Below, in pieces: positions 698 to 36,322 of a DNA stretch of 36,849 bases. The notes under the pieces are model-generated. The model worked only from the letters and a program-made list of their open reading frames with translations, was not told where the DNA came from and did not search any database. Each line of letters begins with the position of its first letter. Positions within the stretch are counted from its first letter, which is position 1. The position numbers and the translations under genes were made by a program. Where the stretch lies: IMG/VR virus record IMGVR_UViG_2529292835_000026, positions 1-36,849 of that record; one strand, written 5' to 3'. Origin of the DNA: a virus. Lineage: Duplodnaviria > Heunggongvirae > Uroviricota > Caudoviricetes.

Positions 698-1060
698 GGG
701 GCTGATTCTGGATTCGACGGGATTTGCGAAACCCAAGGTGCATGCCGAGGGGCGGTTGGCCTCGTAAAAAGCCGCAAAAAATAGTCGCAAACGACGAAAA
801 CTACGCTTTAGCAGCTTAATAACCTGCTTAGAGCCCTCTCTCCCTAGCCTCCGCTCTTAGGACGGGGATCAAGAGAGGTCAAACCCAAAAGAGATCGCGT
901 GGAAGCCCTGCCTGGGGTTGAAGCGTTAAAACTTAATCAGGCTAGTTTGTTAGTGGCGTGTCCGTCCGCAGCTGGCAAGCGAATGTAAAGACTGACTAAG
1001 CATGTAGTACCGAGGATGTAGGAATTTCGGACGCGGGTTCAACTCCCGCCAGCTCCACCA
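698..1060 (+). ncRNA. ssrA: tmRNA (SsrA), 363 nt
   Basis: Starts GGGGCTGATTCTGGATTCGACGGG, contains the tag reading frame GCAAACGACGAAAACTACGCTTTAGCAGCTTAA (ANDENYALAA*), ends GGTTCAACTCCCGCCAGCTCCACCA. Confidence 0.95.
1016..1060. repeat. attL core: 45-bp direct repeat, 3' end of ssrA
   Basis: ATGTAGGAATTTCGGACGCGGGTTCAACTCCCGCCAGCTCCACCA repeated exactly at 36244-36288; flanking sequence diverges on both sides. Confidence 0.9.
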
Positions 1061-9384: not shown

Positions 9385-11114
9385 CAGACCCCCTCCGCAA
9401 TAAACCCAATATTCCATCCACCGTTATCTCCGGTGATGCTCAGAGTAAAGCCAGTTGCAGTAATAGCTGTAATGGCGACACCCTCAACACTCCCACCGTG
9501 TGACGAACGGAAAACGGGGATCACGTACCAGCACTGACGGGCAAATGGTGTCGGAAAATTCACCTGATACTCTTTATTCACCACACCAGTTGCCCCGGAA
9601 AAATAACTGTTAAAAAACTGCTTCAGCACACCGCCAGTTATTCGGTGATGATTGCTGCCAAATGAAAATTCATCTTCACAAACACCCCGACGCCATAGTG
9701 TTGTATTGTCTTTAACCGTATCAGAGCCGCTGAAACGGTGATACATTTCCCCTGCTCCGGTGATGAAAATCTGCGCGCGTCTGTTCTTGTTATACGCAGC
9801 CTGAAAACCTGCACCATTCGATGGCACTTCATCTGCATTACCTGAATATGCAAGAAACTGTGAAACCTCACCCATTTCGTAGTTATTATTGCTACCGATT
9901 CCGTATGCTCCCTGTTGCAGAGCACTTTCAGCCTTATCAACCGTCGGTTTAAGTCCCAGATTCTGAATAAACAAAGTCGGGTCAGGAATATCAGCACCAT
10001 TGCGGTCCTTTGCCAGTCTCGCGCTGGCGTTGTCCATCGCAATTTTTACCGCTTTCAATGTCGCCGCAACATTTTCTGACACGCTGTTTACCTCGTTCCC
10101 CAGTTGCACCATTCCTTTAACACTCACTGATGCTTCTGGATAATGTGCACTGGTGAACACCTGATTCCACGGTGTTTCATCATCGGCAATTTTCGATAAC
10201 ATGCTGAATCGACAGTACATCTTGCCATCATTAGCGACATAAATTTGTGCACGTCGATTGTCGTTGTAACAGGCCTGGAAACCAGCACCATGTGTTGGCA
10301 CTTCTGGATAGCCGACAGCTGTACCATAAGCAAAAAATTGCGATTTGGTTCCCATGGTTTTCAGATAAGCCAGGCCAATTCCATAATCTCCTGGCTGAAT
10401 CGCTGATGCAGCTTTATCAACAGTCGTTTTCAATCCCAGATTCTGAACAAACAGTGCCGGATTGGGAATATCAGAACCATTGCGGTCTTTTGCCAGTCTG
10501 GCGCTGGCATTATCCATCGCTATTTTCACTGCTTTTGGCGTTGCAGCGACTGTTTCATCATTGCTTTCCACACCGCTATACAGACGTACAAATCCCTTTT
10601 CTGTCAAAGACGCAGAAGGATGGCGGCGCGATTGCTCATGAATTTCTATTTGTTGATCTACATAATGACGGGTTGCCAGCACGACAGCAGGGTCGATTTT
10701 CAGGGTGATATTGTCCGTGCTGCTGGTAATCAGCACCATGCGCACGGTCTGGGTGCGCCCGCTGCCTTCAGCCAGTTGCGGCTTATAGCTTTCCGGGCAG
10801 TTGCCCACGGCAATCAATGCCCCGGACTCATCAAACAAGCCCACTTCACGTATCCACCAACCGCCCTCGTTTTCAGGGATCACCTGTTCGGCAATAATCT
10901 GACTGCTGTTCTGCGGGTCGATATAGAGCATATTCAGCGCAGCCCGGCGTTTCTCATTTACCAGTGCAGTCTGCTTTGAGTCTGGCGTTGGCAATACTCC
11001 GCCGCCATCGCCGACCGCCATATGGGTAATTTTTAGCGGCACACCGAGCGCGGCGGCGCTGGCAAGTTTCGCCGCGCCAATATCCGTCAGCAGGGTATAA
11101 AATTTTGTGCTCAT
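9384..11114 (-). CDS. H: Tail fiber protein (gpH-like), 576 aa
   Basis: N-terminus MSTKFYTLLTDIGAAKLA...HMAVGDGGG...AESYKP-type motifs match the P2 gpH N-terminal domain; variable C-terminus. Confidence 0.9.
   Translation of the reverse strand: MSTKFYTLLTDIGAAKLASAAALGVPLKITHMAVGDGGGVLPTPDSKQTALVNEKRRAALNMLYIDPQNSSQIIAEQVIPENEGGWWIREVGLFDESGALIAVGNCPESYKPQLAEGSGRTQTVRMVLITSSTDNITLKIDPAVVLATRHYVDQQIEIHEQSRRHPSASLTEKGFVRLYSGVESNDETVAATPKAVKIAMDNASARLAKDRNGSDIPNPALFVQNLGLKTTVDKAASAIQPGDYGIGLAYLKTMGTKSQFFAYGTAVGYPEVPTHGAGFQACYNDNRRAQIYVANDGKMYCRFSMLSKIADDETPWNQVFTSAHYPEASVSVKGMVQLGNEVNSVSENVAATLKAVKIAMDNASARLAKDRNGADIPDPTLFIQNLGLKPTVDKAESALQQGAYGIGSNNNYEMGEVSQFLAYSGNADEVPSNGAGFQAAYNKNRRAQIFITGAGEMYHRFSGSDTVKDNTTLWRRGVCEDEFSFGSNHHRITGGVLKQFFNSYFSGATGVVNKEYQVNFPTPFARQCWYVIPVFRSSHGGSVEGVAITAITATGFTLSITGDNGGWNIGFIAEGV
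9723..10121. repeat. Tail-fiber internal tandem repeat, copy 2
   Basis: Encodes ...ATLKAVKIAMDNASARLAKDRNGADIP...NRRAQIF...MYHRFS, about 60-70% identical at DNA level to the copy 480 bp upstream. Confidence 0.7.
10203..10601. repeat. Tail-fiber internal tandem repeat, copy 1
   Basis: Encodes ...ATPKAVKIAMDNASARLAKDRNGSDIP...NRRAQIY...MYCRFS; about 133-aa module duplicated in frame. Confidence 0.7.
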
Positions 11115-13603: not shown

Positions 13604-13626
13604 AGTTGTAACTAAGGAGGCGATTG

Positions 13627-14064
13627 ATGAAATCTTGGAAAAACCGAGGATTTAAAAAAAGGGTTCTTGAATATGTTTACTGTTTCTCCGCTGCTCCATT
13701 TTTAGCCATGTTCTACACGTTGTCAGAAAACCAGCTGACAATGTTTATAATTTTCTTCACTGTGAGTTTTTATCTCACTCTGATGGCATCCGTTTTTTTA
13801 ACAAAACGAGGATTTAACAAAGTATTCAAAGAATTCTTTAATTTATTATGGAACTATGAAACGGCCTTCGTTTTTTGCTATGGCCTTTATACTTATCTTT
13901 ATAGAATTGATGGGCAGAAAACTTTATCAAACCTCCTTACCATTATGTTTTCAGCTCACCCATGGACACTTATTTTCGGCATCGGACTCTTGGTTTTCAC
14001 AGTAATTTTCAGGTTTGCTCTGAGTGTTGCTGACTTGCTAGTTGAAGTTAAGTCAGATATATAA
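13627..14064 (+). CDS. Small polytopic membrane protein (about 145 aa), moron between V and S
   Basis: AAGGAGG 6 nt upstream of ATG at 13627 (the ORF track begins 3 nt earlier at a TTG); AT-rich; about four hydrophobic helices; opposite strand to the flanking late genes. Confidence 0.7.
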   Translation: MKSWKNRGFKKRVLEYVYCFSAAPFLAMFYTLSENQLTMFIIFFTVSFYLTLMASVFLTKRGFNKVFKEFFNLLWNYETAFVFCYGLYTYLYRIDGQKTLSNLLTIMFSAHPWTLIFGIGLLVFTVIFRFALSVADLLVEVKSDI

Positions 14065-20041: not shown

Positions 20042-21808
20042 ATGAACACCACACTGACCCCCGCAGATCTCGATCCCCGTCGGCAGGCCATGCTGCTGTA
20101 CTTTCAGGGATACCGCGTAGCCCGCATTGCTGAAATGCTGGGCGAGAAAGTTGCAACCGTTCACAGCTGGAAAAAACGCGACAAGTGGGGTGACTATGGG
20201 CCGCTGGATCAGATGCAGCTCACCACCGCCGCACGCTACTGCCAGCTCATTATGAAGGAGCACAAAGAAGGGAAAGATTTCAAAGAGATTGACCTGCTGG
20301 CGCGCCAGTCGGAACGCCACGCGCGGATCGGCAAGTTTAACAATGGCGGTAACGAAGCCGACTTAAACCCTAACGTCGCCAACCGCAACAAAGGCCCACG
20401 CCGTCAGCCGGAAAAGAACGTTTTCACCGATGAACAAATTGAGAAGCTGGAAGAAATTTTCCATTCCTCCATGTTCAACTACCAGCGCCACTGGTGGGAA
20501 GCCGGAAAAACCAACCGCATCCGCAACCTGCTGAAGTCTCGCCAGATCGGCGCGACCTTCTATTTTGCCCGTGAAGCCCTGATTGACGCCCTGCTGACCG
20601 GACGTAACCAGATTTTCCTTTCCGCCAGCAAGGCACAGGCCCACGTCTTTAAGCAGTACATCATCGACTTCGCCAAAGAAGTGGAGGTGGAGCTGAAAGG
20701 CGATCCGATGGTGCTTCCTAACGGGGCCACGCTTTACTTCCTCGGCACCAATGCCCGCACGGCCCAGAGTTATCACGGCAACCTGTATCTGGATGAATAT
20801 TTCTGGATCCCAAAATTCCAGGAGTTGCGCAAAGTGGCTTCCGGTATGGCTATTCACAAGAAATGGCGGCAGACCTATTTTTCCACACCATCCAGTCTGA
20901 CCCACAGTGCTTATCCGTTCTGGTCCGGTGCGCTGTTCAACCGTGGGCGCAACAAAGCTGACAAGGTGGACATCGACCTGTCCCACAGCAATCTGGCCCC
21001 CGGCCTGCTGTGCGCAGACGGGCAATACCGCCAGATAGTCACCGTGGAAGATGCGGTGCGCGGCGGCTGTAACCTGTTCGACCTTGACCAGTTGCGCATG
21101 GAGTACAGCCCGGACGAATACCAGAACCTGCTGATGTGCGAGTTTGTTGACGATCTCGCGTCCGTGTTCCCGCTCAGCGAGCTGCAGGCGTGCATGGTGG
21201 ACAGCTGGGAAGTCTGGACCGACTTTCATGCACTGGCTCTGCGCCCGTTTGGCTGGCGCGAAGTGTGGATCGGTTATGACCCGGCAAAAGGTACGCAGAA
21301 CGGCGACAGCGCCGGGTGCGTGGTGGTGGCACCGCCAGCCGTGCCTGGTGGTAAGTTCCGCATTCTTGAGCGTCACCAGTGGCGCGGGATGGACTTCCGC
21401 GCCCAGGCTGACGCCATCAAAAAACTGACCGAGCAGTACAACGTGACCTACATCGGCATCGACTCGACCGGCGTCGGCCACGGGGTTTACGAGAACGTGA
21501 AAGCGTTTTTTCCAGCCGTCCGGGAGTTTGTCTACAACCCCAACGTTAAAAACGCTCTGGTACTCAAGGCCTACGACATTATCAGCCACCGCCGTCTGGA
21601 GTTTGACGCCGGGCACACCGACATTGCGCAGTCATTCATGGCAATCCGTCGCGCCACCACCGCCAGTGGCAACCGCCCAACCTATGAAGCCAGCCGCAGC
21701 GAAGAAGCCAGCCACGCCGATCTGGCCTGGGCAACAATGCACGCACTGTTTAACGAACCGCTGCAGGGCGAGTCCGCCAATACCAGCAATATTGTGGAGA
21801 TTTTTTGA
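20042..21808 (+). CDS. P: Terminase ATPase (large) subunit gpP-like
   Basis: 588-aa ORF divergent from O, in the P2 gpP position. Confidence 0.9.
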   Translation: MNTTLTPADLDPRRQAMLLYFQGYRVARIAEMLGEKVATVHSWKKRDKWGDYGPLDQMQLTTAARYCQLIMKEHKEGKDFKEIDLLARQSERHARIGKFNNGGNEADLNPNVANRNKGPRRQPEKNVFTDEQIEKLEEIFHSSMFNYQRHWWEAGKTNRIRNLLKSRQIGATFYFAREALIDALLTGRNQIFLSASKAQAHVFKQYIIDFAKEVEVELKGDPMVLPNGATLYFLGTNARTAQSYHGNLYLDEYFWIPKFQELRKVASGMAIHKKWRQTYFSTPSSLTHSAYPFWSGALFNRGRNKADKVDIDLSHSNLAPGLLCADGQYRQIVTVEDAVRGGCNLFDLDQLRMEYSPDEYQNLLMCEFVDDLASVFPLSELQACMVDSWEVWTDFHALALRPFGWREVWIGYDPAKGTQNGDSAGCVVVAPPAVPGGKFRILERHQWRGMDFRAQADAIKKLTEQYNVTYIGIDSTGVGHGVYENVKAFFPAVREFVYNPNVKNALVLKAYDIISHRRLEFDAGHTDIAQSFMAIRRATTASGNRPTYEASRSEEASHADLAWATMHALFNEPLQGESANTSNIVEIF

Positions 21809-22836
21809 TGGGAAAGAGTAAGAAGAACCGCGCTGCGTCGACGAAACAGATTCAGCATAAAAGCCAGACTTCAGCCGAAGCATTCAGCTTCGGTGATCCC
21901 GTTCCTGTTCTGGACCGCCGCGAATTGCTGGACTATGTGGAATGCGTACAGATGGATCGCTGGTATGAGCCGCCCGTCAGCTTTGACGGACTGGCACGAA
22001 CCTTCCGCGCCGCCGTGCATCACAGCTCACCGATTGCGGTGAAATGCAACATTCTGACCAGCACCTACATCCCTCACCCGCTGCTCAGCCAGCAGGCTTT
22101 TTCACGTTTTGTGCAGGACTATCTGGTATTCGGTAACGCCTACCTGGAGAAACGCACGAATCGATTCGGTGAAGTTATCGCCCTTGAGCCTGCGCTGGCA
22201 AAATACACCCGACGCGGATTAGATCTGGATACCTACTGGTTTGTGCAATACGGCATGACTACGCAGCCGTATCAGTTCACGAAAGGCAGCATCTTTCATC
22301 TGATGGAACCGGATATCAACCAGGAGATCTACGGCCTGCCCGGTTATCTTTCTGCCATTCCGTCAGCCCTGCTCAACGAGTCCGCCACGCTGTTCCGCCG
22401 CAAGTATTACATTAACGGCAGTCATGCAGGCTTCATCATGTACATGACCGATGCAGCGCAGAACCAGGAGGATGTGAACAACCTCCGCAATGCGATGAAA
22501 AGCGCCAAAGGTCCAGGCAACTTCCGCAACCTGTTTATGTACTCACCTAACGGCAAAAAGGATGGTCTTCAGATTATCCCGTTGTCAGAAGTCGCGGCGA
22601 AGGATGAATTTCTGAATATCAAAAATGTCAGCCGCGACGACATGATGGCTGCGCACCGCGTGCCGCCGCAAATGATGGGGATTATGCCTAATAATGTTGG
22701 AGGGTTTGGGGATGTAGAGAAAGCTAGTAAGGTTTTTGTTATAAATGAACTGATACCTTTACAAAAACGGTTACAAGAACTAAATTATTGGATAGATGAA
22801 GATATAATCCAATTTGAAGATTATAGTTTAACTTAA
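21808..22836 (+). CDS. Q: Portal protein gpQ-like
   Basis: ATG overlaps the P stop codon (TGATG); the ORF track starts 3 nt earlier at a TTG. Confidence 0.9.
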   Translation: MGKSKKNRAASTKQIQHKSQTSAEAFSFGDPVPVLDRRELLDYVECVQMDRWYEPPVSFDGLARTFRAAVHHSSPIAVKCNILTSTYIPHPLLSQQAFSRFVQDYLVFGNAYLEKRTNRFGEVIALEPALAKYTRRGLDLDTYWFVQYGMTTQPYQFTKGSIFHLMEPDINQEIYGLPGYLSAIPSALLNESATLFRRKYYINGSHAGFIMYMTDAAQNQEDVNNLRNAMKSAKGPGNFRNLFMYSPNGKKDGLQIIPLSEVAAKDEFLNIKNVSRDDMMAAHRVPPQMMGIMPNNVGGFGDVEKASKVFVINELIPLQKRLQELNYWIDEDIIQFEDYSLT

Positions 22837-22849
22837 ATAATGATAACAC

Positions 22850-22868
22850 AGGGCCTAGAATCGGCCCT
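22850..22868. terminator. Hairpin between convergent Q and HNH genes (non-canonical terminator)
   Basis: AGGGCC-TAGAATC-GGCCCT stem-loop; no U-tract on either strand. Confidence 0.3.
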
Positions 22869-22873
22869 AAAAA

Positions 22874-23545
22874 TTAAAAACCAAGCTCATCTCTGATTCT
22901 TGGGAATTTTTTCATTACTCGAATATCAGTTAATAAATGCCAACGCCAAAAAACAGAAAATGGATATGATACATTACACATTGGCTTTAGCTTATTCTTG
23001 GCCTCTTGGATTTCTTGTTCTGTGCTTCGATCACTGACAAGTTTCATTCTCCAACCAGTAAAGTAAAACAATTCATCTTGTAACTTCTCTGAGAGATTTG
23101 CTCTTGTAATGCCCCTCAACCCCGTACTCGAAGAGTTAAAACACTTATCTAATAATTTGACTGTATTTAAAACCTTTCTACTTGGTCTTTTTCTTCTTGG
23201 GTATACTTGAACACCACTCGTTATAGCGTTCCCTGCGAGATGAACAATCTCACTGAAAACATCAACATCACTCTTTGTGCAATCAAGTAAGTTTTCAAAA
23301 GAATCACTTTTAATACTATTGCATCGACTGCAAGCTAAAAATAGATTGTTCCAATCATATTTGAGCTCATCAAGATCACGATGTGGAATAAAATGTTCTA
23401 TCTCTGGATCCATAAGATTACCTTGCTCACAGAGATAACATTTTCCATGAAATATTTCGTCTAAAGCATTTACAACTGTTTTATGGTTATATACTTTTCT
23501 CGACAAGCATTGAGGTGCAGGAATATTTCTAGTAACATTAAACAT
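22874..23545 (-). CDS. HNH endonuclease, Septu PtuB-like
   Basis: HGKCYLCE ... EIEHFIPH ... NNLFLACSRCNSIKS = HNH motif; overlaps the upstream ATPase gene by 8 nt; AT-rich. Confidence 0.75.
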   Translation of the reverse strand: MFNVTRNIPAPQCLSRKVYNHKTVVNALDEIFHGKCYLCEQGNLMDPEIEHFIPHRDLDELKYDWNNLFLACSRCNSIKSDSFENLLDCTKSDVDVFSEIVHLAGNAITSGVQVYPRRKRPSRKVLNTVKLLDKCFNSSSTGLRGITRANLSEKLQDELFYFTGWRMKLVSDRSTEQEIQEAKNKLKPMCNVSYPFSVFWRWHLLTDIRVMKKFPRIRDELGF

Positions 23546-24791
23546 CGTCTTCCCTTTCGCTATAATCTAAATATTTACTCTTAGCGATCATAAAAGCTGC
23601 TTTTGAACTTTTATCAAGAAAATCAATACTCTTCTGTAACGTTTTCATTATAGAATGAAATCTATCGTCGAAGACATTATTTTCTACTAAAGTCATTAAT
23701 TCTTTAACTAATGCATTTAGCTTATCCGAAGATACATCCTCACCCAACAATCCCTTTATAATTGCTGTGTAAGAATACAATGATAAATCACCCATCTGAT
23801 CCAATGTTGAGAGATTAAATATAATCGCATCAGATACTGATTGGATTACGAAAGGTGAATGCGTAGAAACAATAAATTGTATTTGCGGAAAAGATGATGA
23901 AAAAAAACTAAATACTTTCTTTTGCAATGTTACATGAAGATGAGCATCAATTTCATCAATAAGTACTATCCCTGTCATATCATGTTTTCTGATTTTATCA
24001 AGCTCTGCTTTTATCAATAAATCAGTATAAATAGAAAGAATTGATGAAAAACCAGATGACAACTTATCAAGTCCAAATGGTTCCTTATTATTTTGTAAAA
24101 GATAGATTTTCAACTTGTCGAGATCAAAATCCATTCTAATACTTTCATCTTCAAAAAGTTCTTTTAAGTCATCATTAATACTCTCAATAATATCAAAGGC
24201 TCTTTTATAGTCATCATCCTTGCCCACTCCCTTACTGACTAAAGCATAATTCCACAATGTAACTATGTATCTTTCAAAATACATACCAGCATCAATCTTA
24301 GAATTATTTCTCTGTGCGTTCCCATACTCAGTTAACAACAAATCGAGGCTGCTAATCTTACCATCATTTTTTATTTTCGCTTCTCGAATAGCAGGAAATA
24401 ATCTTATAATTGATTTTTTCTTTTTTGCAGCAACCCTGAAATCAACCACATCATTAAAAGTAATATCAAAGCTCTCAAATTCTTTTAATTTTTCTTTCAG
24501 TCTCTCAATTTCTTCGTTTAAATAGCTATAATTACCATCCCCTCTATTTGAATACTTTAAGTTTTCTTGACTGGAATTCAATTCCTTTTGTAGCTGCTCC
24601 TTAGTATAAGGATCATGTGAATTAATCGATTTTTCTATAAACTCATAAATATTCTCGATCAACCTAGTTTTACCAGAGCCATTATCTCCTGATATTATTA
24701 GATTCTTACCATCAAGATTTAATGTGTAAGGCTCATCGTTCCTTTTAAAGAAGATAGTTTCGATGAAATGTCGCATTATTCCTCCCGTCAT
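23538..24791 (-). CDS. ABC/SMC-type ATPase, Septu PtuA-like
   Basis: Walker A GDNGSGKT, ABC signature LSSGFSS, Walker B VLIDEIDAHLH, H-loop STHSP. Alternative start at 24776 (MRHF...) has a GGGAGGA Shine-Dalgarno. Confidence 0.75.
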   Translation of the reverse strand: MTGGIMRHFIETIFFKRNDEPYTLNLDGKNLIISGDNGSGKTRLIENIYEFIEKSINSHDPYTKEQLQKELNSSQENLKYSNRGDGNYSYLNEEIERLKEKLKEFESFDITFNDVVDFRVAAKKKKSIIRLFPAIREAKIKNDGKISSLDLLLTEYGNAQRNNSKIDAGMYFERYIVTLWNYALVSKGVGKDDDYKRAFDIIESINDDLKELFEDESIRMDFDLDKLKIYLLQNNKEPFGLDKLSSGFSSILSIYTDLLIKAELDKIRKHDMTGIVLIDEIDAHLHVTLQKKVFSFFSSSFPQIQFIVSTHSPFVIQSVSDAIIFNLSTLDQMGDLSLYSYTAIIKGLLGEDVSSDKLNALVKELMTLVENNVFDDRFHSIMKTLQKSIDFLDKSSKAAFMIAKSKYLDYSEREDDV

Positions 24792-24866
24792 ACTTAATAG
24801 CTTTTAGATAATATGACATTACATGTTAGATTTCATCCGTTTTGTGAACATATCCACTGCCGCGCG

Positions 24867-24885
24867 CTCGTATCCCCGCCACGCC
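24867..24885. other. Candidate cohesive-end (cos) site
   Basis: Minus strand reads GGCGTGGCGGGGATACGAG; the first 13 nt equal the start of the 186-type cos sequence as I recall it (GGCGTGGCGGGGAAAGCAT). Position between the Tum-like module and Q fits P2/186 genome order. Confidence 0.4.
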
Positions 24886-25083
24886 TGCCCGCTTTATGTA
24901 GTGGTTTTCATGCGCCTGCATGACATAAGCAAAAGCCCGCCACTCCTGGCAGGCCTCAGCAAAAACGATCCTCTAACGATCATGCGATCTCATTCGTCAT
25001 AGTCATGCACAGCCAAGGGAAGCGTAAATCCGTATCTGAATGACCGCTGAAAAGCTAATCATACGGGTTTACAAAGATGAAAG

Positions 25084-25123
25084 TCCGCTGTGAGCGAAAA
25101 GCGGATATTTCCATTGTTTTATC
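25084..25123. terminator. Hairpin with T-rich tail in the cos/divergent-promoter region
   Basis: TCCGCT-GTGAGCGAAA-AGCGGA followed by TATTTCCATTGTTTTATC. Confidence 0.3.
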
Positions 25124-25228
25124 TTGATCTAGTAAAAACAATACCCTCTTTACAAACAAAAATAATGAGTTACTATTTGCAGCACCTTTTAACCCAAAGG
25201 TTTATAATTAAAAAGGAATGGCATACCG

Positions 25229-25882
25229 ATGAATAAATACAAACTTTTCGCACAGCTATCAAGATATTCATTTGAAGCGCAGATTGATGATTTCGAAAAA
25301 TATATCCTAGGAGCAGGCGGCCAAAACAGAGTTGACTTATCGGAATTAAAAAAAGCATATGAAGATGAAAAAAAGAATGCTCCTGACGATTATATTAATT
25401 ACTTAGAAGACTATTATTCAGAGCAATATGATTTCTTAGTTAACATACAACCAAATATTTTTAATAAATCTGCTTTGGTATCTTTATACTCATGCTTAGA
25501 GCACAACCTAAACGACTATTGCAATATATGTCAAAGGATTGTAAACACCAATATATCAGTAACCGATTTTAATGGTGATGGCATCCACAAAGCAAAAAGA
25601 TATTTAACAAAATTAATGGATATAAACTTTGGCCTGTCACAAGAGTGGCGATTCATGACAGAGTTTAACAAAGTAAGGAATTGCATAGTTCATGCTAATG
25701 GAGACATTAAAAAAATGAGCACAGCTGTAGCCTTAAAAGATATCATTGATAAAACACCTACTCTTTCATTAAACAATGAAAATAATATAATAATCTCCTT
25801 AAATTATTTAAAAGATACTATCACAAAAATTAGAAAACTCTTTCAATGGTTATATACACATCTGGATCAATCATCGAAATGA
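25229..25882 (+). CDS. Uncharacterised 217-aa protein with HEPN-like R-x4-H motif (candidate defence/abortive-infection RNase)
   Basis: AAGGAA upstream of ATG; very AT-rich; motif EFNKVRNCIVHANGD fits the HEPN R-x4-6-H signature; no other recognisable domain. Confidence 0.5.
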   Translation: MNKYKLFAQLSRYSFEAQIDDFEKYILGAGGQNRVDLSELKKAYEDEKKNAPDDYINYLEDYYSEQYDFLVNIQPNIFNKSALVSLYSCLEHNLNDYCNICQRIVNTNISVTDFNGDGIHKAKRYLTKLMDINFGLSQEWRFMTEFNKVRNCIVHANGDIKKMSTAVALKDIIDKTPTLSLNNENNIIISLNYLKDTITKIRKLFQWLYTHLDQSSK

Positions 25883-25982
25883 ATACGATAACATCTCAGT
25901 TTGTTATTGGTCTATTTTTGAAAACAGCTATCGATGATATTAGTCTGTTCTTCGTCAATTAATATGCAATCCGTTCATGACA

Positions 25983-26004
25983 CAGGGCTGCTGTTACAGC
26001 CCTG
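25983..26004. other. Perfect 8-bp-stem hairpin between convergent cargo genes
   Basis: CAGGGCTG-CTGTTA-CAGCCCTG; no U-tract; sits in a short GC-normal patch between two AT-rich genes. Confidence 0.3.
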
Positions 26005-26134
26005 ACAACCTTAGACTTCAATCGATTCAGAGATCTCTAACGCATCATCACCCGTTGAACTCACAGCGATAAGTAGACGCTGGCGGCAATAACACAGAAG
26101 TGTAGCGGGAATTTGAACCACATAATTTGGTTTG

Positions 26135-27001
26135 TTAGATGGCTTTGCTTCGATATTCAATTTCTAAAATCGCCTTTGTCATTGCCGCAATAGTTATAGC
26201 TTCTACCATAGTCAATTCAGGCTTGTTCAAGCTTCCGTGTCCAGCAGTAGGTAATTTGTTACGTAAATCATAAATATCTTTAACAGCATCAATAAGATTC
26301 TTAGGTAATTTTGACATTTTTTCGAACTGTTTAAAAAAACCACCCAATGACTCATTTGCCACATTCGGGTTTTGAGTGATTTCCTTAGCCATAGTTTCTA
26401 AAACATTAGAGGCTGCGTGCAGTGCACCTGCCGGATCATTATTATCCAAGCAATTATTCATTCTATCTATTTGCTGAACGATATTTGGGTGCAATCTCTT
26501 TAAGTAATCACTAGCCAATTCTTCATTGAAATTTTTGACACTTTCAAAAACATCGCAATCTAAATAAAATTTAGGATTGACTGACATCCATGTATATTTC
26601 CAATCATTTTCTAAATTATCTTTTTCCGCAATCCGCCTGCCAGTGTCCTGATCTATCTCATCAACATATTTACACATATAATCGGCGTAGTAGTGTAAAT
26701 ATCTAAATGATATTTCTGGGCAAAAATTACTAACTGATGCAAGGCCGCCATATTCTTTTGTAGTAACTGTAGGGACTTCTTCATCACATAAAGATGAGAA
26801 AGTGGTTCTTTCCCAAAATTCGCCCAACTCTTTTTCTTTCCTAGTTGCCATACCAGCTATCATATTGATGCTTGAGAGCAAAACTACACTCTGATAGTAT
26901 CGAGGACATCTGTATGAACTAGCATATGGGCATATTGATGATGCTTTACGATTAATACGCTCTTTTTCCCACCAATTTTTATCAGGAATAATTCTTTGCA
27001 T
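26135..27001 (-). CDS. Uncharacterised 288-aa protein, candidate defence cargo
   Basis: Long AT-rich ORF convergent with the 217-aa gene; Cys-rich N-terminus (CPYASSYRCPRYY); no family recognised by eye; no clear Shine-Dalgarno at the first ATG. Confidence 0.5.
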   Translation of the reverse strand: MQRIIPDKNWWEKERINRKASSICPYASSYRCPRYYQSVVLLSSINMIAGMATRKEKELGEFWERTTFSSLCDEEVPTVTTKEYGGLASVSNFCPEISFRYLHYYADYMCKYVDEIDQDTGRRIAEKDNLENDWKYTWMSVNPKFYLDCDVFESVKNFNEELASDYLKRLHPNIVQQIDRMNNCLDNNDPAGALHAASNVLETMAKEITQNPNVANESLGGFFKQFEKMSKLPKNLIDAVKDIYDLRNKLPTAGHGSLNKPELTMVEAITIAAMTKAILEIEYRSKAI

Positions 27002-27439
27002 AATTTAGCTACTATCTCACGAGTGAATGAATGTTTAGCCTTCTGCACAGTTTATCAGTTCCGGCATGCCTACTGCTACCCCACTGATTCAACTTCAAGT
27101 TATGAGTTAAAGCGATTCGGTTTCGCTAGATGACACACTAGTGTTAATTTATGGATAAAAATTTATCACTTAAAATTAACTAATGCCTGTTGCGACCAAA
27201 AGTGTGCTGGAATATTATTTTCGTCTGGCCTATTATCAAGCTAATTATCCAAATTAGAGTTACTCTCATTCATCAGCAACAAATAAATACACCTGTTCAC
27301 TTTCTCAAAGTGTTCCTGTTTTATTTTTAAAGCAAACAACGCCGCCTATTCGTCCGAATGTACAACAAACATCAGGTTCTGACACAAAGTGGACGATCAC
27401 TTATCAAAATGACCGCCCACCTTACACCTCATTTCACTC

Positions 27440-27484
27440 GTTGCCCAAACTCCCCCCAACAGGATAAATCCTCTTGGGGGCAAC
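27440..27484. other. Extended G/C-rich stem-loop just downstream of the DinI-like gene
   Basis: CCCCCCAA ... TTGGGGG with inner AGGAT/ATCCT pairing, flanked by GTTGCCC/GGGCAAC; no clear U-tract. Confidence 0.3.
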
Positions 27485-35499: not shown

Positions 35500-36168
35500 A
35501 TGAATAGCGAACTAGAGTTACTTATAAAAATATTATTCCCTTCCCTATCTGCCATTATATCCTTATTAGGGCTTAAAACAGGGTGGACTTATAAAAAAGA
35601 CAAACTATTCACATCACGTAAAAACATTAGCGAATTTTCATATCAGATGTATAAAAGCAGTGAAGATCCGACCTTCAAAAAACTGGCGGAAGATTACGGC
35701 ATTGCTGCATTAACCAAAGATAACACATTGACAAAAAAACAAAGATTAATATTACTCAACACAACAAACCCCGTTAGCGATATAGATAATTATTCCAAAT
35801 GTCAAAGTCTAATTTCCATTACCACCCATAAAGAAATATTCGCATGGAATAAAAAAAGATATAAATACAGCATATATAGAAAATTAATAAAAATCATAAC
35901 AACTCTAATTTACTTCATGAGCAGTCTCATCGTAGCACTTCCTTTCAGTTATTCTGTTGTAGTAAGTGCTAAGATGATGGAGAAGATAAACCATCTAACT
36001 ACTTGGCAATACTTTGGTTTAAGCAGCTATTTTGTGGTATCGGGAGTAGCAATATGCTTTATCTGCCTAGATAAGCTCTCCAAGATTAAGATCGCCGAGA
36101 GATTAATCGTTTCGAATAGGCGTTTAGGCGACAAATGCAGTGGCGGCACTTTGGCGGCAGAAAGTTAA
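35500..36168 (+). CDS. Membrane protein (222 aa), cargo between int and attR
   Basis: Very AT-rich; GAGGT upstream; three hydrophobic helices (N-terminal and two C-terminal); no family recognised. Confidence 0.6.
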   Translation: MNSELELLIKILFPSLSAIISLLGLKTGWTYKKDKLFTSRKNISEFSYQMYKSSEDPTFKKLAEDYGIAALTKDNTLTKKQRLILLNTTNPVSDIDNYSKCQSLISITTHKEIFAWNKKRYKYSIYRKLIKIITTLIYFMSSLIVALPFSYSVVVSAKMMEKINHLTTWQYFGLSSYFVVSGVAICFICLDKLSKIKIAERLIVSNRRLGDKCSGGTLAAES

Positions 36169-36243: not shown

Positions 36244-36288
36244 TTGAAATGCTATGTAGGAATTTCGGACGCGGGTTCAACTCCCGCC
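36244..36288. repeat. attR core: 45-bp direct repeat, displaced ssrA 3' end
   Basis: Identical to 1016-1060. Confidence 0.9.
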
Positions 36289-36322
36289 AGCTCCACCACT
36301 TTTTAGTTGTTTGAAGTTCAAT

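What the first reader, a model, noticed from the sequence alone, without database searches (positions are those of the whole stretch)
22874..24791. Septu-like ATPase + HNH nuclease operon between portal gene and cos
Two overlapping AT-rich genes encode an ABC/SMC-type ATPase (Walker A, signature, Walker B and H-loop all present) followed by an HNH endonuclease. This is the architecture of Septu (PtuA-PtuB), a known anti-phage system. No reverse transcriptase or msr/msd-like element is nearby, so it is not the retron-associated variant. The ATPase (412-417 aa) is shorter than the PtuA proteins I recall, so it may be a divergent subtype. Unusually the pair sits on the Q side of the candidate cos rather than the A side.
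Basis: partly seen in the sequence, partly recalled or inferred. Interest (0 to 1): 0.6.

Follow-up and report, generated by a model that had tools for sequence, protein, structure and literature searches.

The report
Septu defence operon in P2-like prophage
The two genes are a stand-alone Septu anti-phage system (PtuA ATPase plus PtuB HNH nuclease) carried as cargo next to the packaging site of a P2-like prophage of E. coli, a correct but ordinary finding because both the system and its position are typical of this phage lineage.

Summary
Two AT-rich minus-strand genes overlap by 8 nt: ptuA at 23538-24776 (412 aa; the 417-aa start is probably too long) and ptuB at 22874-23545 (223 aa). They lie between the portal gene Q and the cos site (24867-24885) of an intact 35.2-kb P2-like prophage in ssrA.

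- **Classification:** PADLOC gives full-length hits to PtuA1 (E 7e-122) and PtuB1 (E 2e-82). AlphaFold models match only solved PtuA and PtuB chains at the top of the PDB ranking. All ATPase and HNH catalytic residues are invariant, and dN/dS is about 0.08.
- **Not the retron form:** there is no reverse transcriptase and no retron RNA match.
- **Length:** about 410 aa is normal for a large enterobacterial PtuA subfamily that has its own PADLOC model, although it shares only 14-17% identity with solved PtuAs.
- **Position:** the Q side of cos is not unusual. In 72 of 74 related phages, 0.5-3.5 kb of hypervariable defence cargo sits there, and homologous Septu pairs occupy the same slot in Salmonella and E. 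coli.
- **Prior record:** this exact protein pair is already listed in the Rousset 2022 P2-hotspot tables.

This is a known system in a known hotspot. This subtype has not been tested experimentally, and its target (DNA or tRNA-Tyr) is unknown.

The parts
23538..24776 (-). ptuA: ABC/SMC-type ATPase of Septu, 412 aa. An alternative upstream ATG at 24791 would give 417 aa.
   Evidence: ORF. PADLOC PtuA1 PDLC00268, E 7e-122, model positions 1-409 of 411. Pfam AAA_21, AAA_15 and SMC_N. Invariant Walker A, signature, Walker B and H-loop. The AF2 model (pLDDT 82.6) has solved PtuA chains as all of its top 50 PDB matches. dN/dS 0.085-0.10.
22874..23545 (-). ptuB: HNH nuclease of Septu, 223 aa. Its start overlaps the ptuA stop by 8 nt.
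   Evidence: ORF. PADLOC PtuB1 PDLC00331, E 2e-82, model positions 1-220 of 222. Pfam HNH. Invariant CxxC...EH...N...CxRCN..K core. A family profile hits solved PtuB chains at E 6e-6. The AF2 model (pLDDT 93.1) matches only PtuB chains in its top 10, over the full length. dN/dS 0.07-0.08.
24781..24785 (-). Shine-Dalgarno GGAGG, 4 nt upstream of the ptuA ATG at 24776
   Evidence: Read from the sequence. Conserved in the 92%-identical Salmonella cassette.
24808..24836 (-). Candidate sigma-70 promoter of ptuAB (ATGAAA-17-TATTAT), inside the cassette-specific spacer between cos and ptuA
   Evidence: Consensus scan, 9 of 12 matches. The number of such sites in the region is not above the shuffled expectation. 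Both hexamers are retained in the 92%- and 75%-identical cassettes. Function is inferred.
22849..22869 (-). GC-rich hairpin followed by a T-rich tail, 4 nt after the ptuB stop. Candidate terminator between the convergent ptuB and Q.
   Evidence: Terminator-like scan; sequence.
24867..24885 (.). cos cohesive-end sequence of the prophage (reverse complement GGCGTGGCGGGGATACGAG)
   Evidence: Aligned to the P2 cosR/cosL junction. The core is identical in Fels-2 and many P2-like phages.
24861..25008 (.). Conserved cos island that separates two variable cargo slots (22841-24857 and 25010-27480)
   Evidence: Covered by 80-89 of 92 related loci, while both flanks drop to fewer than 20. Conservation on the ptuA side ends 6 nt beyond the 19-nt cos.
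21808..22836 (+). Portal gene Q, convergent with ptuB. It forms the left border of the cargo slot.
   Evidence: RefSeq 'phage portal protein'; ORF.

Best explanation
This is a stand-alone (type I) Septu anti-phage system carried as a self-contained cargo cassette by a P2-like (Fels-2/PSP3-like) prophage. It sits in the variable slot between the portal gene and cos.

Shown here: the gene pair, its family membership, intact catalytic residues, purifying selection, its cassette nature and its position.

Inferred from characterised relatives: the two genes are transcribed from their own promoter in the about 85-bp cassette-specific spacer next to cos, and are translationally coupled. PtuA dimers assemble into a higher oligomer (6:2 PtuA:PtuB in E. 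coli Septu). The three-helix C-terminal extensions of a PtuA dimer clamp the helical C-terminal domain of one PtuB. ATP bound to PtuA keeps the HNH nuclease silent. Infection by a competing phage releases the nuclease, which cuts nucleic acid and stops phage multiplication, protecting the lysogen and so the prophage.

The substrate is not known for this subtype. [quoted passage not shown]
For: - **Profile matches:** full-length PADLOC matches to PtuA1 (E 7e-122) and PtuB1 (E 2e-82). All 25 listed PtuA-query hits but one are PtuA models.
- **Operon structure:** the genes are adjacent, co-directional and overlap by 8 nt.
- **Catalytic residues:** ATPase and HNH residues are invariant in 43 and 32 homologues respectively.
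- **Structure:** the top 50 PDB neighbours of the PtuA model are all PtuA chains, including E. coli Septu 8eea, 8ee4 and 8sux. The top 10 neighbours of the PtuB model are all PtuB chains aligned over the full length, and then E jumps from 3e-3 to 0.16. The PtuA model ends in three helices (356-370, 376-387, 394-416). PtuB has a helical C-terminal half. Both match the PtuA-CTE/PtuB-CTD nine-helix bundle described in PMC12819146.
- **Signature motif:** it reads LSSGF, with a hydrophobic residue where retron PtuA has Gln. Stand-alone Septu has Leu at that position (PMC12819146).
- **Selection:** dN/dS is 0.07-0.10.
- **Conserved pair:** the same two-gene pair, always ATPase plus a 223-aa HNH protein and always about 90 bp from cos and convergent with the portal gene, is found at 92%, 75% and 51% identity in Salmonella, Enterobacter and E. 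coli.
- **Defence slot:** in relatives the same slot carries PD-T7-1, a retron I-C RT-Toprim and PDC-S06 (near full-length PADLOC matches), plus AbiU-like, PDC-S49-like, NsnA-like and OLD/AriA-like proteins.
- **Independent assortment:** L060 has the same A-side genes with a different Q-side cargo. Rousset Table S5A lists the same Septu pair with different A-side genes.
- **Mechanism in the literature:** PMC12640716 (6:2 complex, ATP inhibition, DNA nicking), PMC13096335 (tRNA-Tyr cleavage; Walker A/B and HNH mutants lose defence), PMC11555353.
Against: - No experiment exists for this subfamily.
- It shares only 14-17% identity with any PtuA whose structure or activity is known.
- Sequence similarity to solved PtuAs covers only the C-terminal half of the ATPase.
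- A single-sequence PDB search with PtuB found nothing.
- TM-scores for PtuA are only about 0.5, which is expected for a flexible multi-domain protein but is not a tight match.
- The promoter call is no better than chance.
- Substrate, trigger and oligomeric state are all extrapolated from relatives that differ among themselves.
Confidence: 0.9

Rival explanations
1. The HNH protein is a packaging accessory of the phage, like the HNH endonucleases that work with terminase and portal in HK97-like cos phages, and the ATPase assists it. Its position next to portal, terminase and cos would then be functional.
For: An HNH gene lies immediately beside the portal and terminase genes, and the operon starts 91 bp from cos. 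The cos-to-ptuA spacing is the same in all Septu-bearing relatives.
Against: None of 80 phages with 94-96% identical portal proteins has a PtuA or PtuB homologue, so the pair cannot be needed for packaging. The slot is hypervariable and filled with unrelated defence genes. P2 itself has nothing there. The genes are on the opposite strand from P and Q and have foreign GC content (0.31-0.35 against 0.57). The HNH protein matches PtuB over its full length, including the PtuA-binding helical domain.
Confidence: 0.02
2. It is the effector remnant of a type I-A retron (retron-Septu, such as Ec78 or Ec83) that has lost its reverse transcriptase and ncRNA.
For: The best PDB sequence and fold hits include many retron I-A PtuA and PtuB chains. 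NCBIfam retron Ec78 PtuA and PtuB models give partial hits.
Against: No RT gene lies within 20 kb, and the cassette has only about 85 bp of non-coding DNA. There are no retron RNA matches. The NCBIfam scores are 86 against a cut-off of 500 and 24 against a cut-off of 150. PtuA is 412 aa against 542-552 aa for retron PtuAs, which carry an N-terminal extension and a helical flap for RT and msDNA binding (PMC12819146). The two-gene form is conserved under purifying selection in several genera.
Confidence: 0.02
3. It is a different ABC-ATPase plus nuclease defence pair (PARIS AriAB, AbiL, an OLD or Gabija relative, HEC-01) mislabelled by cross-hitting ATPase profiles.
For: ABC ATPases of these systems cross-hit. 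AriA chains appear in the PDB sequence search at E 1e-4. An ATPase_I-A model appears among the PADLOC hits.
Against: The best PtuA model scores 406 bits over the full length. The only non-PtuA model among the 25 listed hits (ATPase_I-A) scores 90 bits, and AriA appears only in the PDB sequence search at E 1e-4 and about 24 bits. The partner is an HNH protein with a full-length PtuB match, not a TOPRIM/DUF4435 protein (AriB, OLD, GajA) or a helicase.
Confidence: 0.03
4. It is an inactive or decaying cargo remnant with no current function.
For: It is rare: 5 of 5426 complete E. coli genomes carry this DNA. In Enterobacter wuhouensis the pair sits in a degraded prophage.
Against: Both ORFs are intact, all catalytic residues are invariant, dN/dS is 0.07-0.10, and the pair survives intact even where the surrounding prophage has decayed.
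Confidence: 0.04

Closest known systems
Stand-alone Septu type I (PtuA-PtuB; Doron et al. 2018; E. coli ATCC 25922 Septu, PDB 8EEA/8EE4/8SUX)
   Same: A two-gene operon of an ABC ATPase and an HNH nuclease. Full-length PADLOC PtuA1 and PtuB1 hits. Same folds, including the C-terminal helical extension of PtuA and the helical C-terminal domain of PtuB. A hydrophobic residue at the signature-motif position where retron PtuA has Gln (PMC12819146).
   Different: PtuA is 412 aa against 465 aa and shares only about 14-15% identity. Sequence similarity is detectable only around the signature, Walker B and H-loop region. Activity, trigger and oligomer have not been tested for this subfamily.
Septu EcB88 (E. 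coli JBBDAGI-19-0041; PMC13096335)
   Same: A stand-alone E. coli PtuAB. The HNH His-to-Asn spacing is 16 residues in both (H75/N91 there, H51/N67 here).
   Different: The EcB88 proteins are longer: Walker A K43 to Walker B D316 is 273 residues, against K41 to D279 (238 residues) here. EcB88 cleaves the tRNA-Tyr variable loop. Whether this pair does so is unknown, and I did not have the EcB88 sequences to align.
Sister Septu subtype in the same P2-like slot (P0048/P0170; 407 aa + 223 aa)
   Same: Same architecture, the same position about 90 bp from cos, and convergent with the portal gene.
   Different: Only 51-52% amino-acid identity, no 8-nt overlap (5-nt gap), and a different upstream spacer. 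It is more widespread in draft assemblies (indexed in 811 blocks of the collection) but occurs in only 8 of 5426 complete E. coli genomes.
Septu in the Rousset 2022 P2 hotspot (Table S5B, system 105)
   Same: An AAA_21/AAA_15/SMC_N ATPase plus an HNH protein in the gpA-gpQ hotspot, labelled Septu by those authors.
   Different: A distant subtype. The two are alignable only over the 88-residue signature-to-H-loop stretch (39% identity) and the HNH core (32% identity).
Retron type I-A (Ec78/Eco7, Ec83/Eco4) PtuAB
   Same: Homologous ATPase and HNH effectors. These are the closest solved structures by Foldseek E-value.
   Different: Here there is no RT and no ncRNA, and PtuA lacks the roughly 130-140 extra residues of retron PtuAs. 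NCBIfam equivalog cut-offs are missed by a wide margin.
P2 old/tin lysogenic-conversion genes
   Same: Prophage-borne exclusion genes next to cos, expressed from their own promoter. Old also has an ABC-type ATPase.
   Different: old and tin lie on the A side of cos. Old is a single ATPase-TOPRIM polypeptide, not an ATPase plus a separate HNH protein.

Membership tests
Septu type I (PtuA + PtuB) | PtuA: ABC/AAA_15-AAA_21 ATPase matching a PtuA profile | tested here: met
   PADLOC PDLC00268, E 7e-122, 406 bits, residues 6-413 on model positions 1-409 of 411. Pfam AAA_21, AAA_15 and SMC_N above their cut-offs.
Septu type I (PtuA + PtuB) | PtuB: HNH nuclease matching a PtuB profile | tested here: met
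   PADLOC PDLC00331, E 2e-82, residues 1-219 on model positions 1-220 of 222. Pfam HNH at 32 bits against a cut-off of 21. A family profile hits solved PtuB chains at E 6e-6.
Septu type I (PtuA + PtuB) | The two genes are adjacent and co-directional (one operon), with no further obligatory gene | tested here: met
   8-nt overlap on the minus strand. The same pair alone is conserved in four genomic backgrounds, and the neighbouring genes vary.
Septu type I (PtuA + PtuB) | Intact Walker A/B, signature and H-loop in PtuA, and an intact beta-beta-alpha-Me HNH site in PtuB (both needed for defence in EcB88, PMC13096335) | tested here: met
   Invariant columns in 43 PtuA and 32 PtuB homologues; positions.
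Septu type I (PtuA + PtuB) | PtuA and PtuB folds, including the PtuA C-terminal helical extension and the PtuB helical C-terminal domain that form the interface | tested here: met
   AF2 models. In Foldseek against the PDB, PtuA chains fill ranks 1-50 and PtuB chains fill ranks 1-10 with 218-274 aligned columns. The interface itself was not modelled.
Septu type I (PtuA + PtuB) | PtuA-PtuB hetero-oligomer (6:2 in E. coli Septu) with an ATP-inhibited nuclease | not testable with these tools
   Needs co-purification, cryo-EM and nuclease assays. Known only for E. coli Septu (PMC12640716, citing Li et al. 2024).
Septu type I (PtuA + PtuB) | Protection against phage infection | not testable with these tools
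   Needs plaque assays. I found no report for this subfamily.
Retron type I-A (retron-Septu, Septu type II) | Reverse transcriptase gene adjacent to ptuAB | tested here: not met
   No RT among the 53 annotated features within +/-20 kb. The flanking genes are the portal gene and a HEPN protein.
Retron type I-A (retron-Septu, Septu type II) | msr/msd non-coding RNA | tested here: inconclusive
   No Rfam match other than tmRNA, and only about 85 bp of non-coding DNA lies upstream of ptuA. Rfam coverage of retron ncRNAs is incomplete.
Retron type I-A (retron-Septu, Septu type II) | NCBIfam equivalog scores for retron Ec78 PtuA and PtuB | tested here: not met
   86 bits against a cut-off of 500, and 24 bits against a cut-off of 150.
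PARIS (AriA-AriB), OLD and Gabija-type ATPase-TOPRIM systems | TOPRIM/DUF4435 nuclease partner or fusion | tested here: not met
   The partner is an HNH protein. No TOPRIM or DUF4435 hit in Pfam or PADLOC. AriA matches only at E 1e-4.
Phage packaging HNH (HK97 gp74-like) | Conserved core gene next to terminase and portal in related phages | tested here: not met
   Absent from 80 phages with 94-96% identical portal proteins and absent from P2.

The most novel reading that the evidence does not exclude
The compact, roughly 410-aa PtuA subfamily is found again and again exactly about 90 bp from cos in P2-like phages. It could be a functionally distinct Septu branch with a trigger or substrate different from both characterised stand-alone Septus (plasmid-DNA nicking; tRNA-Tyr cleavage). 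Its fixed linkage to cos could reflect more than cassette history, for example expression or sensing tied to the genome end. Separately, the 'gpA-gpQ hotspot' of the literature is really two independently assorting slots split by a 148-bp cos island. The exchange borders lie 6 nt from the cos cut on one side and inside the last 25 or so codons of the portal gene on the other.
Probability: 0.08. Interest if true: 0.45.

Novelty: already known. Interest (0 to 1): 0.15.

Why it matters
It matters little beyond good annotation. It confirms that this ETEC prophage arms its host with a Septu system, and probably with one or two HEPN proteins on the other side of cos.

Two modest points may be useful:

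- The P2-type cos hotspot is bipartite in the Fels-2/PSP3-like lineage, with sharply defined exchange borders. Anyone mining or engineering these cassettes should split the interval at cos.
- The compact 410-aa Septu subfamily is common in Enterobacteriaceae but has no experimental characterisation. It is a reasonable candidate for asking what decides DNA versus tRNA targeting among PtuAB systems.

Tried and rejected
- **Genome-contig scan:** a scan with the single PtuA protein found no relative. That collection holds one genome per species and the single-protein mode finds only close relatives. I used the look-up of encoding contigs on homologues instead.
- **PDB search with PtuB:** the single-sequence search found nothing. 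A 32-sequence profile then hit PtuB chains.
- **Septu in close relatives:** none of the 80 IMG/VR loci with near-identical portal genes contains PtuA or PtuB, so they served only to characterise the slot.
- **Rousset 2022 supplements:** I searched them for the window's PtuA, PtuB and 288-aa sequences as curated systems and found none in the held text, which is truncated. The accession numbers are present in Table S5A.
- **Promoter evidence:** the consensus scan gives as many sites as shuffled sequence, so the promoter assignment rests only on position and on conservation in two related cassettes.
- **Alternatives considered and rejected:** a packaging HNH, a retron remnant, PARIS/OLD/Gabija-type systems and a pseudogenised remnant (see rival explanations).
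- **PADLOC on two other low-GC ORFs:** the ORFs at 13624-14064 and 35500-36168 gave nothing meaningful.
Full report
**Context.** The window is an intact P2-like prophage of enterotoxigenic E. coli.
- The 2.1 kb around the finding is 100% identical to five complete E. coli genomes, including ETEC-2265 (NZ_CP023346), and is absent from the other 5421.
- The RefSeq annotation shows the usual P2 order: tail genes, lysis genes, capsid genes, terminase P, portal Q, then a variable region, a DinI-like gene, replication gene A, dam, the regulators and int.
- A perfect 45-nt direct repeat (1016-1060 and 36254-36298) bounds a 35.2-kb element. The left copy is the 3' end of the tmRNA gene at 698-1060, so the prophage is inserted in ssrA.

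**The observation.**
- Two minus-strand ORFs lie at 23538-24791 (417 aa) and 22874-23545 (223 aa). They overlap by 8 nt.
- The second ATG at 24776 is the more likely ptuA start. It has a GGAGG Shine-Dalgarno sequence 4 nt upstream, it is the RefSeq start, and homologues begin at the aligned position. PtuA is therefore 412 aa.
- GC content is 0.31 and 0.35, against 0.57 for the terminase gene.
- Walker A, signature, Walker B/D-loop and H-loop are present and invariant in 43 homologues. The HNH core (CxxC, EIEH, N, CxRCN..K) is invariant in 32 homologues.
- Orthologues at 92% and 75% identity give dN/dS of 0.07-0.10 for both genes. These are real genes under selection.

**Where cos is.**
- Aligning the circularised P2 cosR/cosL junction to the window places the 19-nt cohesive-end sequence at 24867-24885.
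- That core and its right flank are 94-100% identical to Fels-2, RE-2010, SopE-phi, many Klebsiella P2-like phages and P2-type remnants in laboratory E. coli.
The ptuA start is 91 bp from cos.

**What it is.**
- PADLOC gives PtuA1 (PDLC00268) at E 7e-122 over model positions 1-409 of 411, and PtuB1 (PDLC00331) at E 2e-82 over positions 1-220 of 222.
- Pfam gives AAA_21, AAA_15 and SMC_N for PtuA, and HNH for PtuB.
- PHROGs has full-length families of unknown function for both proteins.
- Sequence search of the PDB links the signature-to-H-loop half of PtuA to retron I-A PtuAs and to E. coli Septu PtuA 8EE4 (E 1e-10 to 4e-14).
- PtuB alone finds nothing in the PDB, but a 32-sequence profile finds PtuB chains at E 6e-6.
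- AlphaFold models built on family alignments are confident: pLDDT 82.6 for PtuA and 93.1 for PtuB.
- In Foldseek against the PDB, ranks 1-50 for PtuA are all PtuA chains, including E. coli Septu 8EEA, 8EE4 and 8SUX.
- Ranks 1-10 for PtuB are all PtuB chains aligned over the full length. The E-value then jumps from 3e-3 to 0.16.
- The PtuA model ends in three helices, and PtuB has a helical C-terminal half. This matches the published interface, in which two PtuA C-terminal extensions and the PtuB C-terminal domain form a nine-helix bundle (PMC12819146).

**Not the retron form.**
- No RT is annotated within 20 kb, and there are no retron RNA matches.
- Only about 85 bp of non-coding DNA lies upstream of ptuA.
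- The NCBIfam retron-Ec78 PtuA and PtuB models score 86 against a cut-off of 500 and 24 against a cut-off of 150.
- PtuA lacks the 130-140 extra residues of retron PtuAs.

**Is it unusually short?** No.
- The homology search returns 1633 proteins at E<=1e-10. The full-length ones are almost all 407-415 aa and come from Salmonella, Enterobacter, Klebsiella, Citrobacter, Serratia, E. coli and others.
- PADLOC's best model is 411 positions long.
- The subfamily is nevertheless far from every PtuA that has been studied (14-17% identity). It is uncharacterised, but it is not unrecognised.

**Is the Q side of cos unusual?** No.
- I fetched 80 IMG/VR contigs whose portal protein is 94-96% identical to the window's, and located cos in 74 of them.
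- The Q-stop-to-cos distance is 518-3497 bp in 72 of them. It is about 160 bp, as in P2 (167 bp from cos to the Q stop), in only two. The window's distance is 2031 bp.
- The ORFs in that interval fall into 71 clusters. All the large ones are on the same strand as ptuAB.
- Nine of the ten representatives tested hit defence families. Three matches are near full length: PD-T7-1 (E 1e-196), retron I-C RT-Toprim (E 2e-217) and PDC-S06 (E 8e-266). The other six are weaker or partial: two AbiU-like proteins, PDC-S49-like, NsnA-like, a helicase and an OLD/AriA-like ATPase.
- Fels-2 and RE-2010 have a 554-565-aa gene in the same place; in RE-2010 it is annotated 'abortive infection protein'.
- Homologous Septu pairs occupy this very slot in Salmonella houtenae (92% identity). 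They also do so in a widespread E. coli sister type (51% identity; indexed in 811 blocks of the collection, but only 8 of 5426 complete genomes). They also do so in a decayed prophage of Enterobacter wuhouensis (75% identity). In each case the cos core lies about 90 bp upstream of ptuA.

**Anatomy of the hotspot.**
- Mapping all related loci onto the window shows homology fading within the last 50 nt or so of Q (about 22790-22840).
- A variable slot follows at 22841-24857, then a conserved island at 24861-25008 containing cos.
- A second variable slot follows at 25010-27480, and homology resumes at the DinI-like gene.
- On the ptuA side, conservation stops 6 nt beyond the cohesive-end sequence. 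The spacer to ptuA is cassette-specific and carries a candidate ATGAAA-17-TATTAT promoter that is retained in the 92% and 75% versions.
- The two slots assort independently. L060 has the window's A-side genes with a different Q-side cargo. Rousset's Table S5A lists the same Septu pair with different A-side genes.

**Prior knowledge.**
- Rousset et al. 2022 (PMC9122126) defined the P2 hotspot as the whole gpA-gpQ interval adjacent to cos. The 2026 survey PMC13586616 uses the same definition.
- Rousset's Table S5A contains this exact pair (WP_001404036 + WP_024169310) ten times, described by domains only. In one entry it appears with the window's other hotspot proteins, WP_001404037 and WP_001404039.
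- Table S5B labels another subtype (system 105) as Septu. It lists the window's 217-aa protein as system 108, 'HEPN_RiboL-PSP, likely a RNAse'.
- In the held (truncated) text I did not find the window's pair labelled as Septu.

**Mechanism.**
- Shown here: family membership, intact active sites, the operon and cassette structure, and purifying selection.
[quoted passage not shown] 2024).
- Septu EcB88 needs its Walker A/B and HNH residues and cleaves the tRNA-Tyr variable loop on infection (PMC13096335).
- PtuAB targets vary among homologues (PMC11555353).
- The window's signature motif is LSSGF, with Phe where retron PtuA has Gln and stand-alone Septu has Leu (PMC12819146). This fits the stand-alone, ATP-binding and weakly hydrolysing type.
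- I commit to a Septu-type, ATP-gated HNH nuclease that blocks competing phages in the lysogen (about 0.9). The substrate is undecided.

**Verdict.** The features that made it look special, a short ATPase and the Q-side position, are normal for this subfamily and this phage lineage. It is a known kind of system in a known hotspot, and the exact proteins are already catalogued. Interest is low.

Noticed in passing
window 24861-25008, with flanks 22841-24857 and 25010-27480: The published 'gpA-gpQ hotspot' is two separate variable slots here, split by a 148-bp conserved cos island. Conservation ends only 6 nt beyond the 19-nt cohesive end on the Q side. The two slots carry independently assorting cargo.
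   Followed up: yes
window about 22760-22836 (3' end of portal gene Q): The last 25 or so residues of the portal protein are hypervariable among phages that are otherwise 94-96% identical. They keep a pattern (LQKR.-E.N-W....I-F--Y-L) and co-vary with the cargo cassette: loci with the same cargo share the same tail. The low GC of the cassette reaches into the end of Q. The exchange border therefore lies inside the portal gene.
   Followed up: partly
window 25229-25882 (+): A 217-aa low-GC ORF on the A side of cos carries an R-x4-H motif (RNCIVH) and a weak PADLOC RTasHEPN hit (E 5e-5). It is identical to system 108, 'HEPN_RiboL-PSP, likely a RNAse', in Rousset 2022 Table S5B. It is probably a second, independent defence gene.
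   Followed up: partly
window 26135-27001 (-): A 288-aa low-GC ORF, convergent with the HEPN gene, has a sub-threshold Pfam Abi_C hit (E 0.0017, residues 227-279, motif RNKLPTAGHG) and no PHROG or NCBIfam family. It co-occurs with the 217-aa gene in L060. It may be an Abi-like HEPN protein.
   Followed up: partly
window 698-1060, 1016-1060 and 36254-36298: A complete tmRNA gene (296 bits) sits at the left edge. A perfect 45-nt direct repeat of its 3' end is found 35,238 bp away. These are the attL and attR of the prophage, inserted in ssrA. A second integrase gene follows just beyond the window in ETEC-2265.
   Followed up: partly
window 35500-36168 (+): A 222-aa low-GC ORF (GC about 0.38) lies between int and attR. 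It has hydrophobic N- and C-terminal segments. It gives a full-length hit to phrog_21256 (unknown function) and no defence-family hit. The position matches the minor 'integrase-att' cargo site mentioned in PMC13586616.
   Followed up: partly
window 13624-14064 (+): A 146-aa ORF with several hydrophobic segments lies on the opposite strand inside the tail/baseplate gene block, in a GC dip (0.42). It is annotated hypothetical in RefSeq and has no PADLOC or PHROG hit. It is a moron at the position between the baseplate V gene and the tail-completion genes.
   Followed up: partly
window 9895-10133 and 10375-10613: A 239-nt direct repeat (70% identity, 480 nt apart) lies in the low-GC tail-fibre and tail-fibre-assembly region.
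   Followed up: no
L091-L093 (Enterobacter wuhouensis and related metagenome contigs): The 75%-identical Septu pair and its adjacent cos core survive intact next to a truncated portal gene and an ogr remnant, beside an ars operon. The defence cassette has outlived the prophage that carried it.
   Followed up: partly
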